Assembly (NCBI GenBank): GCA_046483985.1
Contig: JAWOCD010000107.1
Location: forward strand, 1 to 41,299
Direction of reading: 5' to 3'
DNA length: 41,299 nucleotides
DNA from: Promethearchaeia archaeon
GTDB lineage: Archaea; Asgardarchaeota; Lokiarchaeia; Sigyniarchaeales; SOKP01
Both the position numbers and the translations under genes were made by a program. A model generated the notes under the pieces. The model worked only from the letters and a program-made list of their open reading frames with translations, did not search any database and was not told where the DNA came from. Positions within the stretch are counted from its first letter, which is position 1. Each line of letters begins with the position of its first letter. Positions 27,644 through 39,805 of the stretch are shown one piece after another.

Positions 27644-30600
27644 ATGTCACAATTACAAAGTAGTGTCTTGGTTATTGGCGGGGGAATTGCAGGCATTCAA
27701 ACCTCATTAGATCTAACTGAGCTCGGCTTTAAAGTTTACATGGTGGAAAAGAAATCCACTATAGGTGGAGCAATGGCGCAATTAGACAAAACTTTCCCCA
27801 CTTTGGATTGTTCTTTATGCATTTTGGCTCCTAAAATGGTAGAAGTCTATAGAAACCCCAATATCGATCTATTCACTTATTCATATGTAGACAAAATTGT
27901 GGGTGAAGCTGGGAATTATGAAATAGAGGTTATAAGGAAACCTCGATATGTAAAAGAAGGGATCTGCAAAGGTTGTGGTGATTGTGCAGATATTTGTCCT
28001 GTAAGAGGAATACCAAGTAATTTCGATGAGGGGTTAAAGACTCATTCTGCGGCGCACGTACCATTCCCCTCAGCTGTACCGCCCGTCTATTTAATTGATG
28101 ACAGTAAATGTTTACAAATAAATTACGGGATTTGCGGTCTTTGTCAACAAGCATGTCAAGCAGATGCCATAGATTTCACACAAGAAGAAGAAAAAATCTC
28201 ACTTAAAGTGGGGGCGATAGTCATTGCAACTGGGTGGATTCAAGATAATCCAGAAAATTATCATCGTTTAGCAGGATCCTCTCCCAATGTAGTGTCTAGT
28301 ATGCAATTTGAACGATTACTCTCAGCAAATGGACCTACGGGAGGAGAGTTAATTCGTTTAAATGATAAAAAGCACCCCAAAAAAATTGCCTTCATCCAAT
28401 GTGTAGGATCGCGTGATTTTCACCATCCCGAATGTAAAAAATATTGTTCTGCTATTTGTTGTATGGGAGCCGCTAAACAAGCAATAATTGCTACTGAACA
28501 CGCTCCAGATACCGAGACATTTATATATAATACAGAAATTAGAGCAAAGGGTAAAAACTTCTATGAATTTATCGAAAAGAGTCAAGAGGAGTATGGAGTC
28601 GAATATATTAATGGAAGAGCCTCCCAAATCAAGGAGGACCCTAAAACGGGTGAGCTTTTAATATCTTATGAAGATATGGATAAGGGAATTGTGACAACAG
28701 ATAGAGCAGATATGGCTGTATTGGCCAGTGCGCTATATCCAGATAAATCATATTATAAATTATTAAACTGTTTAGATGCAGGAATAAATGAATTAGAATT
28801 CGTCCATGATGACGATGTAATTAAATTAGAAGAACAAAACATATTTTTTACCGGTTATTCTCGTACGCCAAAAGATATTCCTACCTCTGTAGCAGAGGGA
28901 TCAGCATGTGCCGCAAAGATTAGTGAAAAATTGTATCCCGTTAGATTTGAGGATACGGTTGAATTAGAATTCCCTCCAGAAAAAGAAATCAAAATTGAGG
29001 ATGAACCACGTGTTGGAGTATTAGTCTGTCAATGCGGGATAAATATTGGTGGAGTTGTAGATACAACTGCGGTTGTTGACTATATTGAAAGTTTACCGTA
29101 TGTTGTTCATGCTGAAGAAAATATGTATTCATGCAGTTCCGATTCCCAAGAACGTATAAAAGAAATGATTGAGGAATACGACCTTAATCGGTTTATTGTA
29201 GCCTCTTGTACTCCTCGTACGCACGAACCTCTGTTTCAAAATACCTTACGAGAAGCGGGGTTAAATCCCTTTTTATTCGAATTGGTAAATATTAGAGATC
29301 AAGATTCTTGGGTCCATCAAGATGAACCGGAAGCTGCCACAGAAAAAGCGAAAGATCTCATTCGGATGTATTTAGCGAAAGTTGTTAATTTAAAGCCCCT
29401 CAAAAGACTTAAAGTTGATGTTAAAAAGACAACTTTAGTAATTGGGGGTGGCGTGGCTGGGATTACCGCAGCCCACAATTTGGCTGAACAAGGTTTTGAA
29501 GTCTATATTGCAGATATGAAACCAAAATTAGGGGGGAATTCAATCGAGTTTATTGATTTATATAATCTCCCCATCCATAAACGAGATATTATAGAGGAAA
29601 TTAAGGATTTAAAACGGCTTCCCAATGTTCATGTACTAACTAATCACAAAGTAAACAAGGTATATGGTTATGTTGGTAATTATCATATTTCTGCTCAAAA
29701 TTTGAAAGAAAGTAGGAGTAAGGAATTCGATGTGGGTACGATAATTGTTGCTACTGGATCAAATCAAGGCCAAACTGATCGATGGCAAAAAGTAGCAGAG
29801 AAATACCCCGAGAGAGTTATGACACAAAGTGAATTGGAAGCTAAAACAGAAGACGAACTTCTTGAATTTCAAGATGCTACGATTGTGCTCTGTGTTGACC
29901 AACGTAAAAATGAATACAATAAGGGTGAAAATGTAAAAACATATTGTTCTAATATTTGCTGTATGGTGGCACTGAAAAATATTGAAAAATTATTACAAAT
30001 AAACCCAGAAGCTAATATTCACATATTGTACCGTGAATTACAATTTTCTGACTTGAATTCGGAAAGATTGTGGCGAGAATTAAGAAAAAAACCGAATGTT
30101 TCCTTTGAACGCTATCGCTCTATTGATAACATACAAATTACAGGCAGAAAGAAGCATCTGCACGTTAATTATCCCAACGTGGGAGCTGGATGTAACGTGG
30201 AATATGATTCAGATTTATTAATCATGGCAACTCCCGAAATACCTGCAAAGGGAACGGAAGATTTAGCAAAGATGCTAAAGGTGCCGACAACAAAAGATGG
30301 GTTCTTCTTAGAAGCCCATGTGAAGCTGCGCCCTGTTGATTTTGCAACAGAAGGAATATTTTTATGTGGAGGTGCTCATTGGCCAAAATGGATTGATGAA
30401 AGCAGAATTCAAGCGTATGGAGCTGCGGGAAGAGCGACAATTTTAATGGCGAAAGGAGAAGTAGAAACGGAAGGAATTACCTCTTACGTACAAGAAGAAA
30501 AATGCGTTGGCTGCGGACGATGTGAAGACGCATGTCCATATAGCGCCATAGAAATGATTGAAATTAAGAAAAAAATGGGACTTTATGAAGTTACAGAATT

Positions 30601-30766
30601 AAAAGCCCGTGTAATTAACGCTGTTTGTAAGGGATGTGGAGTTTGTGTTGCTGAATGTCCTTTAGGAGCAATAGATCAAAATCATTTCAGCAAACATCAA
30701 ATTAGCAAGCAAATTGATCTCCTACCTGGAATTAAACAAGAATCCATTGTAAAAGAGGGAAACTAA
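27644..30766 (+). CDS. hdrA: Heterodisulfide reductase subunit A-like, tandem double-module form (all-Cys)
   Basis: Two GGGxAG FAD motifs; QLDKTFPTLDCSLC; inserted 2x[4Fe-4S]; YCSAICC and YCSNICC; internal VCQCGINIG N-domain; C-terminal ferredoxin; EAHVKLRPVDF. Confidence 0.93.
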   Translation: MSQLQSSVLVIGGGIAGIQTSLDLTELGFKVYMVEKKSTIGGAMAQLDKTFPTLDCSLCILAPKMVEVYRNPNIDLFTYSYVDKIVGEAGNYEIEVIRKPRYVKEGICKGCGDCADICPVRGIPSNFDEGLKTHSAAHVPFPSAVPPVYLIDDSKCLQINYGICGLCQQACQADAIDFTQEEEKISLKVGAIVIATGWIQDNPENYHRLAGSSPNVVSSMQFERLLSANGPTGGELIRLNDKKHPKKIAFIQCVGSRDFHHPECKKYCSAICCMGAAKQAIIATEHAPDTETFIYNTEIRAKGKNFYEFIEKSQEEYGVEYINGRASQIKEDPKTGELLISYEDMDKGIVTTDRADMAVLASALYPDKSYYKLLNCLDAGINELEFVHDDDVIKLEEQNIFFTGYSRTPKDIPTSVAEGSACAAKISEKLYPVRFEDTVELEFPPEKEIKIEDEPRVGVLVCQCGINIGGVVDTTAVVDYIESLPYVVHAEENMYSCSSDSQERIKEMIEEYDLNRFIVASCTPRTHEPLFQNTLREAGLNPFLFELVNIRDQDSWVHQDEPEAATEKAKDLIRMYLAKVVNLKPLKRLKVDVKKTTLVIGGGVAGITAAHNLAEQGFEVYIADMKPKLGGNSIEFIDLYNLPIHKRDIIEEIKDLKRLPNVHVLTNHKVNKVYGYVGNYHISAQNLKESRSKEFDVGTIIVATGSNQGQTDRWQKVAEKYPERVMTQSELEAKTEDELLEFQDATIVLCVDQRKNEYNKGENVKTYCSNICCMVALKNIEKLLQINPEANIHILYRELQFSDLNSERLWRELRKKPNVSFERYRSIDNIQITGRKKHLHVNYPNVGAGCNVEYDSDLLIMATPEIPAKGTEDLAKMLKVPTTKDGFFLEAHVKLRPVDFATEGIFLCGGAHWPKWIDESRIQAYGAAGRATILMAKGEVETEGITSYVQEEKCVGCGRCEDACPYSAIEMIEIKKKMGLYEVTELKARVINAVCKGCGVCVAECPLGAIDQNHFSKHQISKQIDLLPGIKQESIVKEGN

Positions 30767-30779
30767 GAGGCAAATAATT

Positions 30780-31265
30780 ATGAAAAAATCTAAAGAAAGT
30801 GAAGAACAAGAATTTCAACCAGAAATATTAGTTTTTTGTTGTAATTGGTGTAGTTATGCTGGGGCGGATTTGGCTGGAGTATCTCGATTTCAATATCCAC
30901 CGAGCATTAGAATTGTACGGGTTATGTGTTCTGGTCGGGTACAGCCTTCCTTTATATTGGAAGCGTTCTCTAAGGGTATTGACGGTGTATTAGTTACCGG
31001 ATGCCATATTGGAGATTGCCATTACATTTCTGGAAATGAATATACTTTAGAGAGAATGGAGCATATGGAAAAGTTACTCGAAAAGTTGGGAATCGAAAAA
31101 GAGCGATTTCGGTTACATTGGATATCGGCATCAGAAGGAAAGCAATTTGCAGAATTGATAAGAGAATTTACGAGGGATGTTAAGAAAGTCGGACCTTCCC
31201 CCATCTCAAAAAAGCTTGGTCAAATAGAATTTCACAGAGAAAGTATAAAACAAGAATCAACCTAA
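30780..31265 (+). CDS. mvhD: MvhD [2Fe-2S] subunit (Cys form)
   Basis: FCCNWCSYAGADLAG, RVMCSGRV, GCHIGDCHY and WISASEG motifs. Confidence 0.95.
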   Translation: MKKSKESEEQEFQPEILVFCCNWCSYAGADLAGVSRFQYPPSIRIVRVMCSGRVQPSFILEAFSKGIDGVLVTGCHIGDCHYISGNEYTLERMEHMEKLLEKLGIEKERFRLHWISASEGKQFAELIREFTRDVKKVGPSPISKKLGQIEFHRESIKQEST

Positions 31266-31286
31266 AAGGAGGAAAAATGAAAAAGA

Positions 31287-32399
31287 ATGGTTGAATCAAA
31301 AAAAAAGACTATGCAAAAAAAAGATGTAAAGACCTTCGAAGATTTAGAAAAGGAAGTAATCCATAATGATCTATGCTGTGCTTGCGGTGCTTGTGTGAGC
31401 TATTGTGAAAGTCAAGCATTTGATGTAATTAAAATGGTGAATTATACCCCCCAATTTAAATCCGATAAAAATGCCGAAAATTGCACTGAGTGCGGTGTAT
31501 GTTATTATATCTGCCCTCAAACAGAACCAATTTTAGAGCAAATAACTCAAAAATATAAAATTGAAGATGAAACTGGGCATATTGAGGATGTTTTGGCGGC
31601 AAAAACGACTAATGAGAAAATAAATGAATTGGGTCAAGATGGAGGAGTCGTTACCACCTTGCTTACATATTTATTTGATAGACATTTGATCGATGCAGCC
31701 GTAGTATCTCAATACGACGAAAAGTTAGAACCAAAGCCAAAACTGGTCTTCAATAAAGAAGAACTACTCAAATCGGCAGGCACTCGCTATTCGGTTTCTC
31801 CCCAGTTTCTCCCGCTTAAGGATCTCTATAACCTTGGACCAGAATCTCTGAAAGAGGGGAATATCTATGATATCAATTCTTTGCGGGTGGCATTTGTTGG
31901 AACTCCTTGCCAACTTCGTGCATTAAGAAAAATGCATTATCTTAATATCAGTCCAGCTCATGTAATTAAATATGTTATTGGGTTGTTTTGTTTTGAGAAC
32001 TTCGATTACAAAAAACTCTACGATATATTAAAGAAAAAGACCAAAACAGAGCCTTCAGAGATTCAAAAAACATGGATTAAAAAGAACTTCTTTTTGAAAA
32101 CAAAGGAGGGGGACGAGCATGAGGTAAATATCAAAAAATTAGATCCGGCAGTCCGGAGCAATTGCCACGAATGTGATGAGTTCACCTCAATGTTTTCTGA
32201 TATCAGCGTGGGTGCGTCCGGAGCGCCTCAAGGATACTCAATGATAATCATCCGTACAGAAACAGGGGAGGAATTGGTAAATCATGCCCTCGCAAACGAA
32301 TATATTGAACGGTATATTGTCCCACCCGAAAAGGGGCAAGAATGGAAGCAGAAAAAGAAGGAATGGTTTAAGAAGATGGTCTCATTTAAAACAAAATAA
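31287..32399 (+). CDS. Coenzyme F420 hydrogenase/dehydrogenase beta subunit (FrhB/FpoF-like)
   Basis: N-terminal 2x[4Fe-4S]; GQDGGVVT, AGTRY, VGTPCQ, GLFCFENF and CHEC...DISVG motifs. Confidence 0.9.
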   Translation: MVESKKKTMQKKDVKTFEDLEKEVIHNDLCCACGACVSYCESQAFDVIKMVNYTPQFKSDKNAENCTECGVCYYICPQTEPILEQITQKYKIEDETGHIEDVLAAKTTNEKINELGQDGGVVTTLLTYLFDRHLIDAAVVSQYDEKLEPKPKLVFNKEELLKSAGTRYSVSPQFLPLKDLYNLGPESLKEGNIYDINSLRVAFVGTPCQLRALRKMHYLNISPAHVIKYVIGLFCFENFDYKKLYDILKKKTKTEPSEIQKTWIKKNFFLKTKEGDEHEVNIKKLDPAVRSNCHECDEFTSMFSDISVGASGAPQGYSMIIIRTETGEELVNHALANEYIERYIVPPEKGQEWKQKKKEWFKKMVSFKTK

Positions 32400-36014: not shown

Positions 36015-37982
36015 ATGTCTGCTAAAGAACAGACCAAGGAAAGTGAACAAAGAATTGGAGTTTTCGTTTGTCGTTGAGGTATAAACATTGCTGGTATATT
36101 AGATGTTCCAGAGATTGTAGAACGGATTAATAATCTGGATGATGAGAACGTTCGAGCCTATGAGTATTTATCTATGTGCACGGAAGGAGGATCTACATAT
36201 ATCAAAGAGCAAATTGAGGAATTCGACTTAGACCGGATAGTCGTGGCCGCATGCACCCCAAAAACGCATCAACCCGTATTTCATGCTATTTTGGATGAAG
36301 CAGGTTTACCACCTCGATACTTAGAGTTTGTCAATATCAGAGAACATTGTTCATTTGTACATCAACAACAAAAGGAAGTTGCCACGGAAAAAGCCATTGA
36401 ATTAATTAAAGCGGGAATTGCACGAGCAAGATTATTAGAAGATGTTCCAACCAAGACTGTGTCGGTAAAAAATAAGGCATTAGTAGTTGGCGGCGGAATC
36501 GCGGGATTATCCTCGGCTATAGATCTTGCAGATGCAGGATATCAAGTTCATTTGGTTGAGAAAAAAACCACTATCGGTGGCAGAATGTCTCAATTGGATA
36601 GAACATTCCCGACTGACGATTGTTCCATCTGAATCCTCGGACCAAAGATGCTTGAAGCTAATCGTCATCCAAATATCAACATATTATCGTATAGTGAAGT
36701 CGTAGAGGTAGATGGGTTTATTGGGAATTTTGAAGTAAAAGTAAAACGGAAGCCCCGATATGTTGAGGAAGATTCATGTACCGGATGTGGTCAATGCACT
36801 GATGTATGCCCGATTTATGTTCCAAATTATTTCGATGAAAACTTATCGGCTCGTAAGTGTATTGATATCTCATTCGCGCAAGCGGTGCCAGCAATTTATG
36901 ATATCGACCGAGAATCATGTGTCGAATGTTTTGCATGCGTAGATGCATGTGATCAAGAATCCATAGATTTCAGTCAGAGAGAGTGGTTTGTTGATCTCGA
37001 AGTGGGTACAATTATAGTCGCAACGGGCTGGGATCTCTATCAAGGAGATGATTACGGTTATGGCGTCTATGATAATGTCATTAGCCAAATCCAGCTTGAA
37101 CGGATACTTGCCCCGAATGGTCCAACCTTCGGACATTTAATACGGCCTTCGGATAGAAAACGACCAAAACGAATACTTTTCATCAACTGCGTTGGTTCCA
37201 GGAACCTCAATACTAATGAGTATTGCAGTGTAGTGTGCTGTAACCTTTCGGTTAAAAACTCAAAACTCATCAAGTCAGAATATCCAGACTCAGAAATAAT
37301 AGTTTCGTATATAGACATGCGTTGCGCTGGGAAAGATTATGAGGAATATTTTAGACGAGCTCGTGACGCGGGAATTGTCTTTACCAAGGGAAAAGTAGGG
37401 GAAATCGAAGAGGACACCGAAACAAAAAATCTCCGTGTGAAAATGGAACCAGTAGGGACAGACACCGTCTTAGAATCTGAATTTGATCTGGTTGTTTTAT
37501 CATCGGCCTCTCTACCATCCCAAGGCACGAAAGAGATCGCACAAGTACTCAATATTGAAAAAAGTGCGGATGGATTTCTAAAAGAGTATCATGCTCGCTT
37601 AGATCCTATTAATACGAAAGTACCCGGAATCTATTTGGCAGGATCTTGTCAAAGCCAAAAAGGAATTGACAAAACGGTTTCTCAAGCAAAAGGTGCCGCC
37701 TCATCGGCTGCAATTCCCATGGGAAAGGGAGAATTCACAATGGAACTAATCCGAGCAAAGCCCTTAGATGAGAGATGCGCGAAATGTTATAAATGCATAG
37801 AATCTTGTCCATACAGCGCTATTTCAGTCAATGAAAAAGGAAATTTGGTCGTTGATATCATTAAATGTAGAGGATGCGGAACGTGTGAGAGTGTATGTCC
37901 TTCTAAGGCGATTGAACTAACCTATTATCGAGATGACCAGTATATGGCATATATTGACGAATTATTACCGATCGAGGATTAA
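36015..37982 (+). CDS. hdrA: Selenocysteine-containing HdrA (655 aa; Sec21, Sec206)
   Basis: ATG 36015 is in frame with ORFs 36174-36632 and 36648-37982. TGA 36075-77 in RIGVFVCR-U-GINIAG aligns with RVGVLVCQ-C-GINIGG of the paralog. TGA 36630-32 in DCSI-U-ILGPKM aligns with DCSL-C-ILAPKM. Confidence 0.93.
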
Positions 37983-37986
37983 AGAG

Positions 37987-38421
37987 GTGTCAAATATTAC
38001 AAATAATGGAGATATTAGAATAATTGCTTTCTTGTGCTGGAAATGAGGATATGGTGCAGCGGATATGGCCGGAACCATTCGAGCTCAATATCCTCCATCA
38101 ATCCGGACTGTTTTAGTTCCATGCACTGGACGAGTAGGTTCTGAAGTGATTATGAGAGCATTTGGACGGGGTGCCGACGGCGTAATGGTCGTGGGATGAT
38201 ATCCAAAAGAATGTGATTATGAAACCGGAAATTACTTCGCACATCGGCAAGTAGAGTACCTCAAAAATGTATTAGAGACCGCAGGACTGAGCAGTAAAAG
38301 AATCATAATGGAGTTTTGCAGTGCTGCAGAAGGTCAGAAATTCCAAAAAGTCGCTACGCAATTCGACAAGGAAATTAAGGAACTTGGTCCTTCCCCTTTG
38401 CGGGCGGATGACAAACGATAA
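37987..38421 (+). CDS. mvhD: Selenocysteine-containing MvhD/VhuD (about 144 aa; Sec20, Sec71), missed by ORF track
   Basis: GTG start (ATT 37996 after GAGGTG is an alternative). FLCWK-U-GYGAADMAG (TGA 38044-46), VPCTGRV, VVG-U-YPKECDY (TGA 38197-99), FCSAAEG; TAA 38419-21. Both TGAs match Cys of the MvhD at 30780. Confidence 0.93.
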
Positions 38422-38430
38422 AAGAAATAA

Positions 38431-38507
38431 AATGTGCTCCTAATGAGGCCAGATTACAAAATGTTAGAATTTGGCTGAAGAATAGGAAGCCCCTTTTAAC
38501 GCACATT
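38431..38507 (+). promoter_or_regulatory. Eukaryote-like SECIS element in 3' UTR
   Basis: Helix I TCCTA/TAGGA; core ATGA (38443-46) and TGAA (38476-79); helix II GCCAGATT/AATTTGGC; apical AAAA (38458-61); outer stem AATGTGC/GCACATT. Confidence 0.88.
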
Positions 38508-38665
38508 TATTTATCCACATTTACCATCAAGAAAAAATATAAAAATCATAACAAAAAGTTCCAAAATATTAAAATTTAAAGAAACAAGGTTTAAAGTATA
38601 GTTGAGAAAACTAATTTATCATTATTATTAAAAAAATTTATTAAAAATTAAAGAGTTGGAGTCAA

Positions 38666-39805
38666 GTGAAAGTTAAAGGAGAATATCTTATAAAATATGA
38701 AGATTTTCCACAATTGTTAAAAACATTATTAGATGAAGGAATAATCGATAAAATCATTGGTGCAAAACCCAAGATCAGCCGAAAAACTGAAGAGGAGGAT
38801 AGATTATCCATCTCTCCTGAGGTTTACGAAGAGTCAAATGATATTGAATCTTTTCCTCTCTCAAACCTCATAGCATATGGCTATGCCAGAACAGACTCTG
38901 CTGCCAAGTATCTCCAGTCGAAACTAAACGGCGCCAAAGAGGAAAAGATCGGCTTAGTAGCACGACCATGTGACACGCGCGCGATAGTCGAACTGGTCAA
39001 GATTCGGCAAGTCAATTTGGATAATCTGTTCATTATCGCAATGGAAGATAGAGGGTTAATCCCGAAGGTCTCCCGTTCTATGCGAAAACACAAGGATATT
39101 GACACGACCGAAGTGGTTCGGGAAAAGATCGTGGACGATGGATTCCAATTTTTATTTGAAGGCGGAGATACTAAAACAGTAGATTTAGAAATTGCTGATA
39201 ATTGCTCCCGTTGCGTTAGCAAGACTCCTGCTATTGCTGATATTTCGGTTTCCAATGTGGGCGTGCCCATTGATTCGGACTCGCTCATCTTGAAAGTGTA
39301 TTCGGAAAGCGGACAATCTATCCTCGATAAGGCTGGATTGGATCTTGACGCCTTACCGGATGATTTGAAAGAGAGCCACACTGAAAAGATGGAAGAATTA
39401 TTGCAGAAGGCACAAGAAAAACGGGAAGGTGATTTAGAAGAATGGAACAAGCTCTCGCAGGAAGATAAAATTGAAAAGTTACAGAAATGCACAATGTGCG
39501 GAATGTGTATACGCGCATGTCCCGTCTGTTATTGTGTCGATTGCATCTTGCAGAAGAAACGGAAGGAAAAAACGATCAATAATGAAACTTATCAACTGAC
39601 GCGAATTGCTCATGTTGCAGACAGATGTGTTGAATGCGGAAGCTGCGACAATAACTGCCCCATGAGTTTGCCACTATCATTATACTTCCAGTCACTCAAT
39701 GACGCATTTAAGGAGAAGTTTAACTATGAAGCCGGAAAGTCCGTGGATGACGTACCTTTCCGTTCAGGTGAGGCAATAAAGTCGATGGAATTAGAGAGAA
39801 CATAA
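38666..39805 (+). CDS. FdhB/FrhB-family Fe-S flavoprotein with C-terminal 2x[4Fe-4S]
   Basis: ARPCDTRAIVELVKIRQVNLDNL, NCSRC...ADISV, CTMCGMCIRACPVCYCVDC and CVECGSCDNNCP motifs; GTG start. Confidence 0.85.
   Translation: MKVKGEYLIKYEDFPQLLKTLLDEGIIDKIIGAKPKISRKTEEEDRLSISPEVYEESNDIESFPLSNLIAYGYARTDSAAKYLQSKLNGAKEEKIGLVARPCDTRAIVELVKIRQVNLDNLFIIAMEDRGLIPKVSRSMRKHKDIDTTEVVREKIVDDGFQFLFEGGDTKTVDLEIADNCSRCVSKTPAIADISVSNVGVPIDSDSLILKVYSESGQSILDKAGLDLDALPDDLKESHTEKMEELLQKAQEKREGDLEEWNKLSQEDKIEKLQKCTMCGMCIRACPVCYCVDCILQKKRKEKTINNETYQLTRIAHVADRCVECGSCDNNCPMSLPLSLYFQSLNDAFKEKFNYEAGKSVDDVPFRSGEAIKSMELERT

What the first reader, a model, noticed from the sequence alone, without database searches (positions are those of the whole stretch)
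36015..38507. Hidden two-gene selenoprotein unit: four UGA-Sec codons, apparently one eukaryote-type SECIS
Seen: hdrA has in-frame TGA at 36075 and 36630, and an un-called mvhD has TGA at 38044 and 38197. All four align with Cys in paralogs within this window. The genes are 4 nt apart, and the only SECIS-like hairpin I can find starts 10 nt after the mvhD stop. Known: HdrA and VhuD are selenoproteins in Methanococcales, and Lokiarchaeota are reported to use eukaryote-like 3' SECIS elements. Inference: one SECIS recodes four UGAs in two cistrons up to about 2.4 kb upstream, across a TAA stop and a re-initiation event. That would be eukaryote-style Sec decoding on a polycistronic mRNA.
Basis: partly seen in the sequence, partly recalled or inferred. 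Interest (0 to 1): 0.9.

Follow-up and report, generated by a model that had tools for sequence, protein, structure and literature searches.

The report
Known shared SECIS behind hdrA-vhuD
Two neighbouring redox-enzyme genes of an uncultured Loki-type (Asgard) archaeon carry four UGA "stop" codons that almost certainly encode selenocysteine, and the only insertion signal lies after the second gene; this is real, but it was published for this lineage in 2016 and 2024.

Summary
hdrA (36015-37982) reads through TGA at 36075 and 36630. A vhuD/mvhD gene that ordinary ORF calling misses (37987-38421) reads through TGA at 38044 and 38197. All four codons align with Cys in the Cys-type paralogs in this window. 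About 80 related Asgard loci keep them as TGA.

The genome (Promethearchaeota MAG, 4.06 Mb) has tRNA-Sec, SepSecS, Sec-containing SelD, and EFSec-like and PSTK-like genes. TGA still ends about 15% of its long ORFs.

A covariance model built from 13 SECIS copies in this genome finds one hit in the 41-kb window (38437-38501, 55.5 bits; next best 11.5). It finds one hit after vhuD in each of about 75 other hdrA-vhuD loci. Synonymous-rate scans and local folds show no hidden RNA element in either gene.

The shared-SECIS reading is therefore supported. It is not new: Mariotti et al. 2016 (PMC4989117) and Huang et al. 2024 (PMC11227280) describe this arrangement, and this scan has already reported it in many other genomes. 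Co-transcription and Sec insertion remain untested by experiment.

Minor additions: the SECIS sits inside a conserved clamp stem next to a mini-hairpin, and a FrhB-like gene always follows on the same strand.

The parts
36015..37982 (+). hdrA, 655 codons plus TAA; heterodisulfide-reductase subunit A type flavo-iron-sulfur protein with two Sec
   Evidence: NCBIfam HdrA2 773.8 bits over profile positions 1-641 of 777; PDB 9sfi_A, 8.7e-214
36075..36077 (+). UGA = Sec21 of HdrA. This Asgard-specific extra Sec site is Cys in methanogen HdrA structures.
   Evidence: conserved as TGA in almost all ~80 loci; aligns with Cys in 9sfi_A
36630..36632 (+). UGA = Sec206 of HdrA, the canonical HdrA Sec site (motif DDCSIU)
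   Evidence: (aligns with non-standard residue X in 9sfi_A)
37974..37978 (+). GAGGA Shine-Dalgarno-like motif 8 nt before the vhuD GTG, inside the end of hdrA
   Evidence: sequence; mild synonymous constraint, ratio 0.84-0.87, over the last ~20 hdrA codons
37987..38421 (+). vhuD/mvhD, 144 codons plus TAA, GTG start, two Sec
   Evidence: FlpD 2.8e-46; VhuD 151 bits; also HdrA2 profile positions 647-774; PDB 9sfi_K, 2.5e-36
38044..38046 (+). UGA = Sec20 of VhuD
   Evidence: (aligns with X in 9sfi_K)
38197..38199 (+). UGA = Sec71 of VhuD
   Evidence: (aligns with X in 9sfi_K)
38430..38508 (+). Whole structured element: outer clamp stem (38430-37 with 38501-08) enclosing the SECIS arm and a small 3' hairpin
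   Evidence: MFE -21.5 kcal/mol, z -3.27; R2 65.6 bits; outer stem 94% paired in 60 sequences
38443..38446 (+). AUGA, 5' half of the SECIS kink-turn core
   Evidence: invariant in all 13-14 genome copies
38447..38476 (+). Helix II (9 bp, 38447-55 with 38468-76) and 12-nt apical loop ACAAAAUGUUAG (38456-67)
   Evidence: (94% paired, 9 of 9 pairs with compensatory changes, slid controls 35-46%)
38477..38478 (+). GA, 3' half of the SECIS core
38483..38495 (+). Position of the conserved mini-hairpin that follows the SECIS (orthologs: AUGG-NNGCA-CCAU). Here it is only 3 bp (38484-86 with 38492-94). It competes with a longer helix I (38438-42 with 38483-87).
   Evidence: (84% paired, 5 of 5 pairs with double changes across families)
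38666..39805 (+). FrhB/FdhB-like iron-sulfur gene that follows the SECIS on the same strand in all orthologous loci (context; possibly the same operon)
   Evidence: FrhB_FdhB_C 4.2e-10; 55-66% identical homolog 70-160 nt after the SECIS in 54 loci
27644..31265 (+). Cys-type paralogs (tandem HdrA-like protein of 1040 aa, and MvhD of 161 aa) that supply the Cys alignment for all four Sec sites

Best explanation
hdrA and vhuD form a two-gene selenoprotein unit of a Loki-type Asgard archaeon. Their four in-frame UGA codons are decoded as selenocysteine by tRNA-Sec and an EFSec-type factor. The recoding signal is the single lokiSECIS, a kink-turn-type AUGA/GA hairpin with an A-rich apical loop, that starts 21 nt after the vhuD stop. 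It acts at distances of 246, 399, 1813 and 2368 nt on ribosomes translating either cistron of one shared mRNA. vhuD is started at its own Shine-Dalgarno and GTG, 4 nt after the hdrA stop.

Shown here: the genes, the conserved UGAs, the machinery, the uniqueness and covariation of the SECIS, and the lack of any other conserved RNA element.

Inferred: Sec is actually inserted, both genes are on one transcript, and the distal SECIS serves hdrA.
For: - Reading frames and families.
- Sec sites align with Cys in the window's paralogs. Three of the four align with the non-standard residue X in the solved Hdr-Vhu complex 9sfi.
- HdrA U21/U206 and VhuD U20/U71 are kept as TGA in nearly all of ~80 loci from other Asgard MAGs.
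- Machinery: tRNA-Sec is at C17:67637-67729, next to SepSecS (390 bits), with an EFSec-like GTPase about 4 kb away (235 bits on selB; next best family EF-1alpha at 137 bits). A PSTK-like gene scores 158 bits. SelD has an in-frame TGA.
- TGA remains a stop in about 15% of long ORFs.
- SECIS model R1, with filters off, gives one hit in the window at 55.5 bits; the next best is 11.5 bits. It gives one hit per pair in the three other hdrA-vhuD pairs of this genome and in 72 of 80 related loci, always after vhuD. R2 adds one more.
- Stem covariation.
- No suppressed synonymous variation inside hdrA or vhuD beyond mild dips (minimum ratio 0.75-0.89).
- No unusual folds after any UGA or in the leader (z from -1.0 to +1.05).
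- The hdrA stop is TAA or TAG in every complete locus, never TGA. Some vhuD stops, which lie too close to the SECIS, appear to be TGA. This fits a SECIS that recodes any distant upstream UGA.
- The same conclusion is published.
Against: - There is no experimental evidence anywhere for Sec insertion, for the transcript structure, or for SECIS function in any Asgard archaeon.
- The R1 and R2 models detect only lokiSECIS-like elements. A non-conserved or very different hdrA-specific signal would escape them.
- The EFSec-like and PSTK-like hits fall below NCBIfam's curated cut-offs (235 vs 242 bits; 158 vs 290 bits).
- No SBP2 homologue is known in Asgard archaea, so how the SECIS reaches the ribosome is unknown.
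- The mild synonymous constraint in the last ~20 codons of hdrA could hide an internal promoter rather than only the vhuD ribosome-binding site.
Confidence: 0.8

Rival explanations
1. hdrA is served separately. It would have its own unrecognised recoding signal (a different SECIS type in the coding region or 5' leader), or it would be transcribed apart from vhuD and decoded without a cis SECIS. The element after vhuD would then serve vhuD only.
For: Methanococcales hdrA and vhuD each have their own archaeal SECIS. The R1 and R2 models can only see lokiSECIS-like RNAs. There is mild synonymous constraint at hdrA codons 291-304 and 636-655.
Against: - No second hit above noise in the window with filters off, nor in ~75 related loci.
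- No Rfam SECIS family matches.
- Folds after both hdrA UGAs and in the leader are no better than shuffles.
- The synonymous dips are shallow (0.84-0.89). The real SECIS region has 77% mean column identity.
- A 4-nt gap leaves no room for an element.
- The hdrA stop is never UGA in 84 loci, as expected if a distal SECIS reaches it.
Confidence: 0.08
2. The UGAs are read through without selenocysteine (near-cognate Cys or Trp insertion, or a local code change). The hairpin would be a terminator or stability element.
For: No protein-level data exist. The element is followed by short T runs.
Against: - A complete Sec pathway is present, including a Sec-containing SelD.
- The same hairpin family follows 14 UGA-containing genes and nothing else in 4.06 Mb.
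- The invariant AUGA/AAA/GA signature with a covarying stem is specific to SECIS.
- Three of the four sites match the non-standard residue positions in a solved Hdr-Vhu complex.
- TGA is an ordinary stop in about 15% of long ORFs.
Confidence: 0.03
3. The four TGAs are sequencing or assembly errors, or the genes are pseudogenes.
For: The genome is a fragmented MAG of 128 contigs.
Against: The same four codons are TGA in ~80 independent assemblies, and the proteins are 74-83% identical with no frameshifts. Three further hdrA-vhuD pairs in this genome show the same pattern.
Confidence: 0.01

Closest known systems
HdrA-VhuD tandem selenoprotein gene pairs of Lokiarchaeota sharing one lokiSECIS (Mariotti et al. 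2016, PMC4989117; Huang et al. 2024, PMC11227280)
   Same: - Same two families, order, strand and very short gap.
- Sec at the canonical HdrA site plus an extra N-terminal site, and two Sec in VhuD.
- A single AUGA / 9-bp stem / A-rich loop / GA element just after vhuD and none elsewhere.
- The hdrA stop is never UGA.
   Different: Nothing essential. The apical loop here has 12 nt instead of the published 11 (one extra A). I also describe a conserved outer clamp stem, a mini-hairpin after the core, and a FrhB-like gene that always follows. I did not find these in the main text of either paper; the supplements were not checked.
Methanococcales/Methanopyrus HdrA and VhuD selenoproteins with archaeal (GAA_A-bulge) 3'-UTR SECIS elements; solved Hdr-Vhu complex PDB 9sfi
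   Same: Orthologous enzymes (8.7e-214 and 2.5e-36). Sec is at HdrA ~200 and at both VhuD sites. hdrA lies next to vhuD.
   Different: The methanogen SECIS has a different architecture, and by the papers each gene has its own element. HdrA has one Sec there; residue 21 is Cys in 9sfi_A.
Eukaryotic SECIS (Rfam SECIS_1; multi-UGA decoding as in SelP)
   Same: An AUGA...GA kink-turn core with unpaired As in the apical loop. It acts from a non-coding position on distant upstream UGAs, and UGAs too close to it are not recoded.
   Different: - No match to any Rfam SECIS model, even at E<=10.
- Helix II is 9 bp and helix I is very short.
- No SBP2 in Asgard archaea.
- The mRNA is polycistronic.
HdrA2 of Methanosarcina-type archaea (NCBIfam NF040770), a fused HdrA-MvhD
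   Same: P0001 covers profile positions 1-641 and P0002 covers positions 647-774 of the 777-position model. The pair is therefore the split form of one functional unit.
   Different: Here there are two cistrons in different frames, and the proteins contain Sec. Both scores fall below the family cut-off because each protein is only part of the fused model.

Membership tests
lokiSECIS (Asgard type I eSECIS-like element) | AUGA directly before the main stem and GA (or AA) directly after it | tested here: met
   AUGA 38443-46 and GA 38477-78. Both are invariant or nearly so in 13 genome copies and 57 orthologs.
lokiSECIS (Asgard type I eSECIS-like element) | 9-bp main stem supported by covariation | tested here: met
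   38447-55 pairs with 38468-76 with no mismatch. 94% of cells are paired and 9 of 9 pairs show compensatory change; slid controls give 35-46%. 93% are paired in 73 sequences.
lokiSECIS (Asgard type I eSECIS-like element) | 11-nt apical loop beginning with a run of adenines | tested here: met
   The loop ACAAAAUGUUAG has 12 nt, one A more than the 11-nt loop of the other copies. The A run is present.
lokiSECIS (Asgard type I eSECIS-like element) | Lies within a few tens of nt after the stop of a UGA-containing gene | tested here: met
   21 nt lie between the vhuD TAA and the AUGA. In the complete related loci the distance runs from an overlap with vhuD's end to 26 nt.
Shared-SECIS HdrA-VhuD pair (Mariotti 2016) | hdrA upstream of vhuD, same strand, very short or overlapping junction | tested here: met
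   4-nt gap. The same order holds in ~80 loci.
Shared-SECIS HdrA-VhuD pair (Mariotti 2016) | Only one SECIS, after vhuD | tested here: met
   One hit with filters off in 41 kb. One hit per locus elsewhere. No hidden conserved or stable RNA in the coding regions.
Shared-SECIS HdrA-VhuD pair (Mariotti 2016) | The hdrA stop is UAA or UAG, never UGA | tested here: met
   TAA here. In the complete loci it is always TAA or TAG, against 15% TGA among long ORFs of this genome.
Shared-SECIS HdrA-VhuD pair (Mariotti 2016) | Both genes on one mRNA that carries the SECIS | not testable with these tools
   No transcript data. This is inferred from the 4-nt gap and conserved synteny only.
Sec-decoding trait (archaeal/eukaryotic pathway) | tRNA-Sec, SepSecS, SelD/SPS | tested here: met
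   tRNA-SeC (anticodon tca) at C17:67637-67729. SepSecS scores 390 bits, over its cut-off. SelD scores 169 bits, over its cut-off, with one in-frame TGA.
Sec-decoding trait (archaeal/eukaryotic pathway) | EFSec/SelB and PSTK | tested here: inconclusive
   The best hits are clearly these families (selB 235.3 bits vs EF-1alpha 137; PSTK 158.2 bits), but both are under the curated cut-offs of 242.25 and 290.5. The EFSec-like gene lies about 4 kb from tRNA-Sec and SepSecS.
Eukaryotic SECIS (Rfam SECIS_1 and other Rfam SECIS families) | Match to the curated covariance model | tested here: not met
   No SECIS family is listed at E<=10, either on 4.5 kb or on the 141-nt element alone.
Eukaryotic SECIS (Rfam SECIS_1 and other Rfam SECIS families) | Bound by SBP2 | not testable with these tools
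   The literature reports no SBP2 in any Asgard genome. I did not re-search for it here.
HdrA / VhuD selenoproteins | Sec at the positions used by established archaeal selenoproteins | tested here: met
   HdrA U206 and VhuD U20 and U71 align with X in PDB 9sfi chains A and K. HdrA U21 aligns with Cys there. That X stands for Sec is my inference.

The most novel reading that the evidence does not exclude
The recoding signal is not a simple 3'-UTR hairpin. It would be a three-armed RNA: a conserved clamp stem, the SECIS arm, and a conserved NNGCA mini-hairpin. It would sit between cistrons of a longer conserved hdrA-vhuD-frhB-like(-polyferredoxin) operon. The extra arms would be functional, for example as the docking site of the unknown SBP2 substitute or as a processing or termination point.
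Probability: 0.2. Interest if true: 0.45.

Novelty: already known. Interest (0 to 1): 0.2.

Why it matters
A single distal SECIS serving several UGAs in two cistrons is unusual biology. It bears on how eukaryotic Sec decoding arose from an archaeal system. That point was made in 2016 and generalised in 2024.

This locus adds one more clean example with conserved sites and a complete machinery, plus an independent re-derivation of the 'only one SECIS' claim. The re-derivation used a full-sensitivity covariance-model scan, a synonymous-rate scan and local folding.

Its practical value is for annotation. hdrA is split and vhuD is lost under standard gene calling.

The open question is experimental: no Asgard selenoprotein, transcript or SECIS has been tested.

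Tried and rejected
- Rfam scans found no SECIS family, on 35.0-39.5 kb and on the 141-nt element alone. The only hits were chance-level snoRNA look-alikes (E 4-9).
- A loose pattern search (AUGA/GUGA, 9-bp stem, 10-13-nt loop) gave 95 mostly spurious hits in this AT-rich genome. I replaced it with covariance models R1 and R2.
- R2 placed the window's outer-stem 3' strand in the wrong register. For this copy I took the pairing from the thermodynamic fold instead.
- I looked for a bacterial-type SECIS right after each UGA and for a 5'-leader SECIS. The folds were no better than shuffles.
- I looked for hidden RNA through suppressed synonymous change. Only shallow dips appeared.
- I looked for a conserved promoter or terminator between the SECIS and the FrhB-like gene. 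The spacer is AT-rich and unconserved, apart from a GAGTTGGAA-like motif just before the start codon, so the end of the transcript stays open.
- Translation of hdrA and vhuD as one read-through fusion is unlikely. The genes are in different frames, and the spacing of the junction varies among orthologs.
- A literature search for SECIS + Asgard + polycistronic found no paper.
Full report
**Observation.** With TGA read as U, window 36015-37982 (+) is one open frame of 655 codons. It has U at residues 21 (36075-36077) and 206 (36630-36632) and ends in TAA. Four bases later, GTG 37987 opens a 144-codon frame that ends at TAA 38419-38421, with U at residues 20 (38044-38046) and 71 (38197-38199). 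Under the standard table the first gene appears as 152- and 444-aa pieces, and the second only as fragments of 40-44 aa. 'Hidden' and 'un-called' are therefore fair descriptions.

The first protein is an HdrA. Its domain set is FAD/NAD-binding plus several 4Fe-4S domains. It scores 773.8 bits on NCBIfam HdrA2 and 8.7e-214 to PDB 9sfi chain A. The second is MvhD/VhuD, with Pfam FlpD at 2.8e-46, NCBIfam VhuD at 151 bits, and 2.5e-36 to 9sfi chain K. Together they cover positions 1-641 and 647-774 of the fused HdrA2 model, so they are the split form of one unit.

**The four UGAs are Sec codons, not errors.**
- Each aligns with Cys in the Cys-type paralogs of this same window, the 1040-aa tandem HdrA at 27644-30766 and the MvhD at 30780-31265.
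- HdrA U206 and both VhuD sites align with the non-standard residue X in the deposited sequences of the Hdr-Vhu complex 9sfi. HdrA U21 aligns with Cys there. That X stands for Sec is my inference.
- I fetched 80 related loci from other genomes, nearly all labelled Promethearchaeota or other Asgard MAGs, with 51-83% identical HdrA. HdrA positions 21 and 206 and VhuD positions 20 and 71 are TGA in nearly every complete locus. Some loci carry further TGAs at HdrA positions 55, 80 or 255.
- This genome holds three more hdrA-vhuD pairs with the same pattern.

**The organism can decode Sec.** The window is contig C42 of a 4.06-Mb, 35% GC, 128-contig MAG.
- ARAGORN finds a tRNA-SeC (anticodon tca) at C17:67637-67729.
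- SepSecS lies 230 nt further on (390 bits, over its cut-off).
- An EFSec-like GTPase lies about 4 kb away. It scores 235 bits on selB, just under the 242 cut-off, against 137 bits for EF-1alpha.
- A PSTK-like gene scores 158 bits, under its cut-off.
- SelD is over its cut-off and itself contains one in-frame TGA.
- TGA still ends about 15% of ORFs of 300 or more codons, so this is site-specific recoding and not a changed genetic code.

**The signal.** After the vhuD stop the RNA folds with a z-score of -3.27, and 0 of 200 shuffles are as stable. Its core is AUGA (38443-46), a perfect 9-bp stem (38447-55 with 38468-76), a 12-nt loop ACAAAAUGUUAG, and GA (38477-78). This is the published lokiSECIS signature of AUGA, a 9-bp stem, an 11-nt loop starting with As, and GA, with one extra A in the loop.

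Thirteen such elements from this genome align with invariant AUGA, AAAU and GA. In the stem, 94% of cells are paired, all 9 pairs show compensatory change, and slid controls give 35-46%.

**Is it the only one?**
- The covariance model R1, built from those 13 copies and run with all filters off, gives one hit in the 41-kb window: 38437-38501, 55.5 bits, E 3.5e-13. The next best is 11.5 bits.
- R1 gives one hit after vhuD in each of the genome's three other pairs. It gives 14 hits in the whole genome.
- In the 80 related loci it gives 73 significant hits in 73 loci, all 1-26 nt after the vhuD stop or overlapping its end, and none elsewhere.
- A second model, R2, recovered one more locus whose core reads UUGA. 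The remaining loci are truncated before or near the end of vhuD, or have diverged.

These models see only lokiSECIS-like RNAs, so I ran two model-free tests.
- A synonymous-rate scan over 57 orthologous hdrA and vhuD sequences shows no strong constraint. The window ratio has a mean of 1.00 and an SD of 0.05. The lowest values are 0.75-0.88 at the first codons of hdrA, 0.87-0.89 at codons 291-304, and 0.84-0.87 over the last 20 codons, where the vhuD Shine-Dalgarno lies.
- The 70 nt after each UGA, and the 90-nt leader, fold no better than shuffles, with z from -1.0 to +1.05.
- No Rfam SECIS family matches anywhere.

A further indirect sign comes from the stop codons. The hdrA stop, 461 nt before the SECIS, is TAA or TAG in all complete loci and never TGA. 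Several vhuD frames run through a terminal TGA next to the SECIS. This is what one expects if the element recodes any sufficiently distant upstream UGA on the same RNA. Mariotti et al. made the same argument.

**Mechanism.** The best-supported reading has four parts.
- One mRNA carries hdrA, vhuD and the SECIS.
- Ribosomes start hdrA at ATG 36015, and start vhuD at GTG 37987 with its own GAGGA (37974-78).
- EFSec with Sec-tRNA-Sec is delivered to UGAs 246-2368 nt upstream by way of the kink-turn-type SECIS.
- The factor that reads the SECIS is unknown, since no SBP2 is reported in Asgard archaea.

The stop and restart between the cistrons do not add a mechanistic hurdle for an element that acts at a distance. 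The anatomy and conservation are shown here. Sec insertion, co-transcription and the service to hdrA are inferred. I found no experimental test in the literature I could search.

**Comparison with what is known.** This is the arrangement of Mariotti et al. 2016. [quoted passage not shown] Huang et al. 2024 confirm it across hundreds of Asgard MAGs. This scan has already reached the same verdict on many other genomes, and on another pair of this genome. The finding is therefore correct and already known.

**Small additions.**
- In the orthologous group the SECIS lies inside a conserved outer stem (AUGUGUU with AACACAU). In this copy it is AAAUGUGC with GCACAUUU, which includes a compensatory U-A to C-G change. 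The stem is 94% paired in 60 sequences.
- The core is followed directly by a mini-hairpin, AUGG-NNGCA-CCAU in orthologs. Across gene families it is 84% paired, with double changes in all 5 pairs. In this window that hairpin is weak, and a longer helix I (38438-42 with 38483-87) competes with it.
- I did not find either feature in the main text of the two papers. Their supplements were not checked.
- A FrhB-like gene (38666-39805) follows on the same strand 70-160 nt after the SECIS in all 54 orthologous loci where sequence was available. In the Cys-type module of this window the corresponding three genes are 13 and 21 nt apart. The SECIS may therefore be intercistronic rather than in a terminal 3' UTR. 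The spacer shows no conserved promoter or terminator, so this stays open.

Noticed in passing
window 38430-38508; loci L023-L083 at the matching place: The hdrA-vhuD SECIS is enclosed by a conserved 7-8-bp outer stem and is followed by a conserved mini-hairpin with an NNGCA loop, giving a three-armed fold. I did not find this in the main text of the 2016 or 2024 papers.
   Followed up: partly
window 38509-39805: A FrhB/FdhB-like gene follows the SECIS on the same strand in all 54 orthologous loci examined, 70-160 nt downstream. A conserved GAGTTGGAA-like motif lies just before its start codon. The SECIS may be intercistronic.
   Followed up: partly
window 27644-32399 and 36015-39805: A Cys-type module (tandem HdrA-like, MvhD, FrhB) with 13- and 21-nt gaps lies 4 kb upstream of the Sec-type module (HdrA, VhuD, SECIS, FrhB-like). 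An AOR gene and a ferredoxin gene lie between them.
   Followed up: partly
genome contig C17:62200-69120 (L001, L005): Sec machinery cluster: an EFSec-like GTPase, tRNA-Sec and SepSecS lie within 7 kb.
   Followed up: partly
genome contigs C18, C95, C101 (L105, L110, L106), C37 and C97 (L104, L103), C107, C8: Further SECIS-linked ORFs with in-frame TGA and no Pfam family. Three are 160-173-aa proteins with adjacent U-U. Two are paralogs of 306-322 aa with two U each. Two are small proteins of 98 and 131 aa. Other agents of this scan have already followed several of these as candidate new selenoprotein families.
   Followed up: partly
L025:4422-4512: An orthologous hdrA-vhuD SECIS whose core reads UUGA instead of AUGA. 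Model R1 missed it and R2 found it.
   Followed up: no
L079 (contig labelled Bathyarchaeota): A hdrA-vhuD locus with Cys at HdrA position 21, only one Sec in VhuD (position 71 is Cys), and a weaker, GC-rich SECIS hit (24.5 bits). It may be a binning artefact or a divergent lineage.
   Followed up: no
window 36885-36930 (hdrA codons 291-304): A mild dip in synonymous variation (ratio 0.87-0.89) within the inserted ferredoxin domain. It is too shallow to suggest an RNA element.
   Followed up: no
window 38428-38513: The only Rfam look-alikes of the SECIS are chance-level snoRNA models (best: C/D-box SNORD91, E 4; also H/ACA snoR103, E 6.6). The C/D-box alignment pairs AAUGAGG and CUGAAG with the C and D boxes, in line with a kink-turn core.
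   Followed up: no
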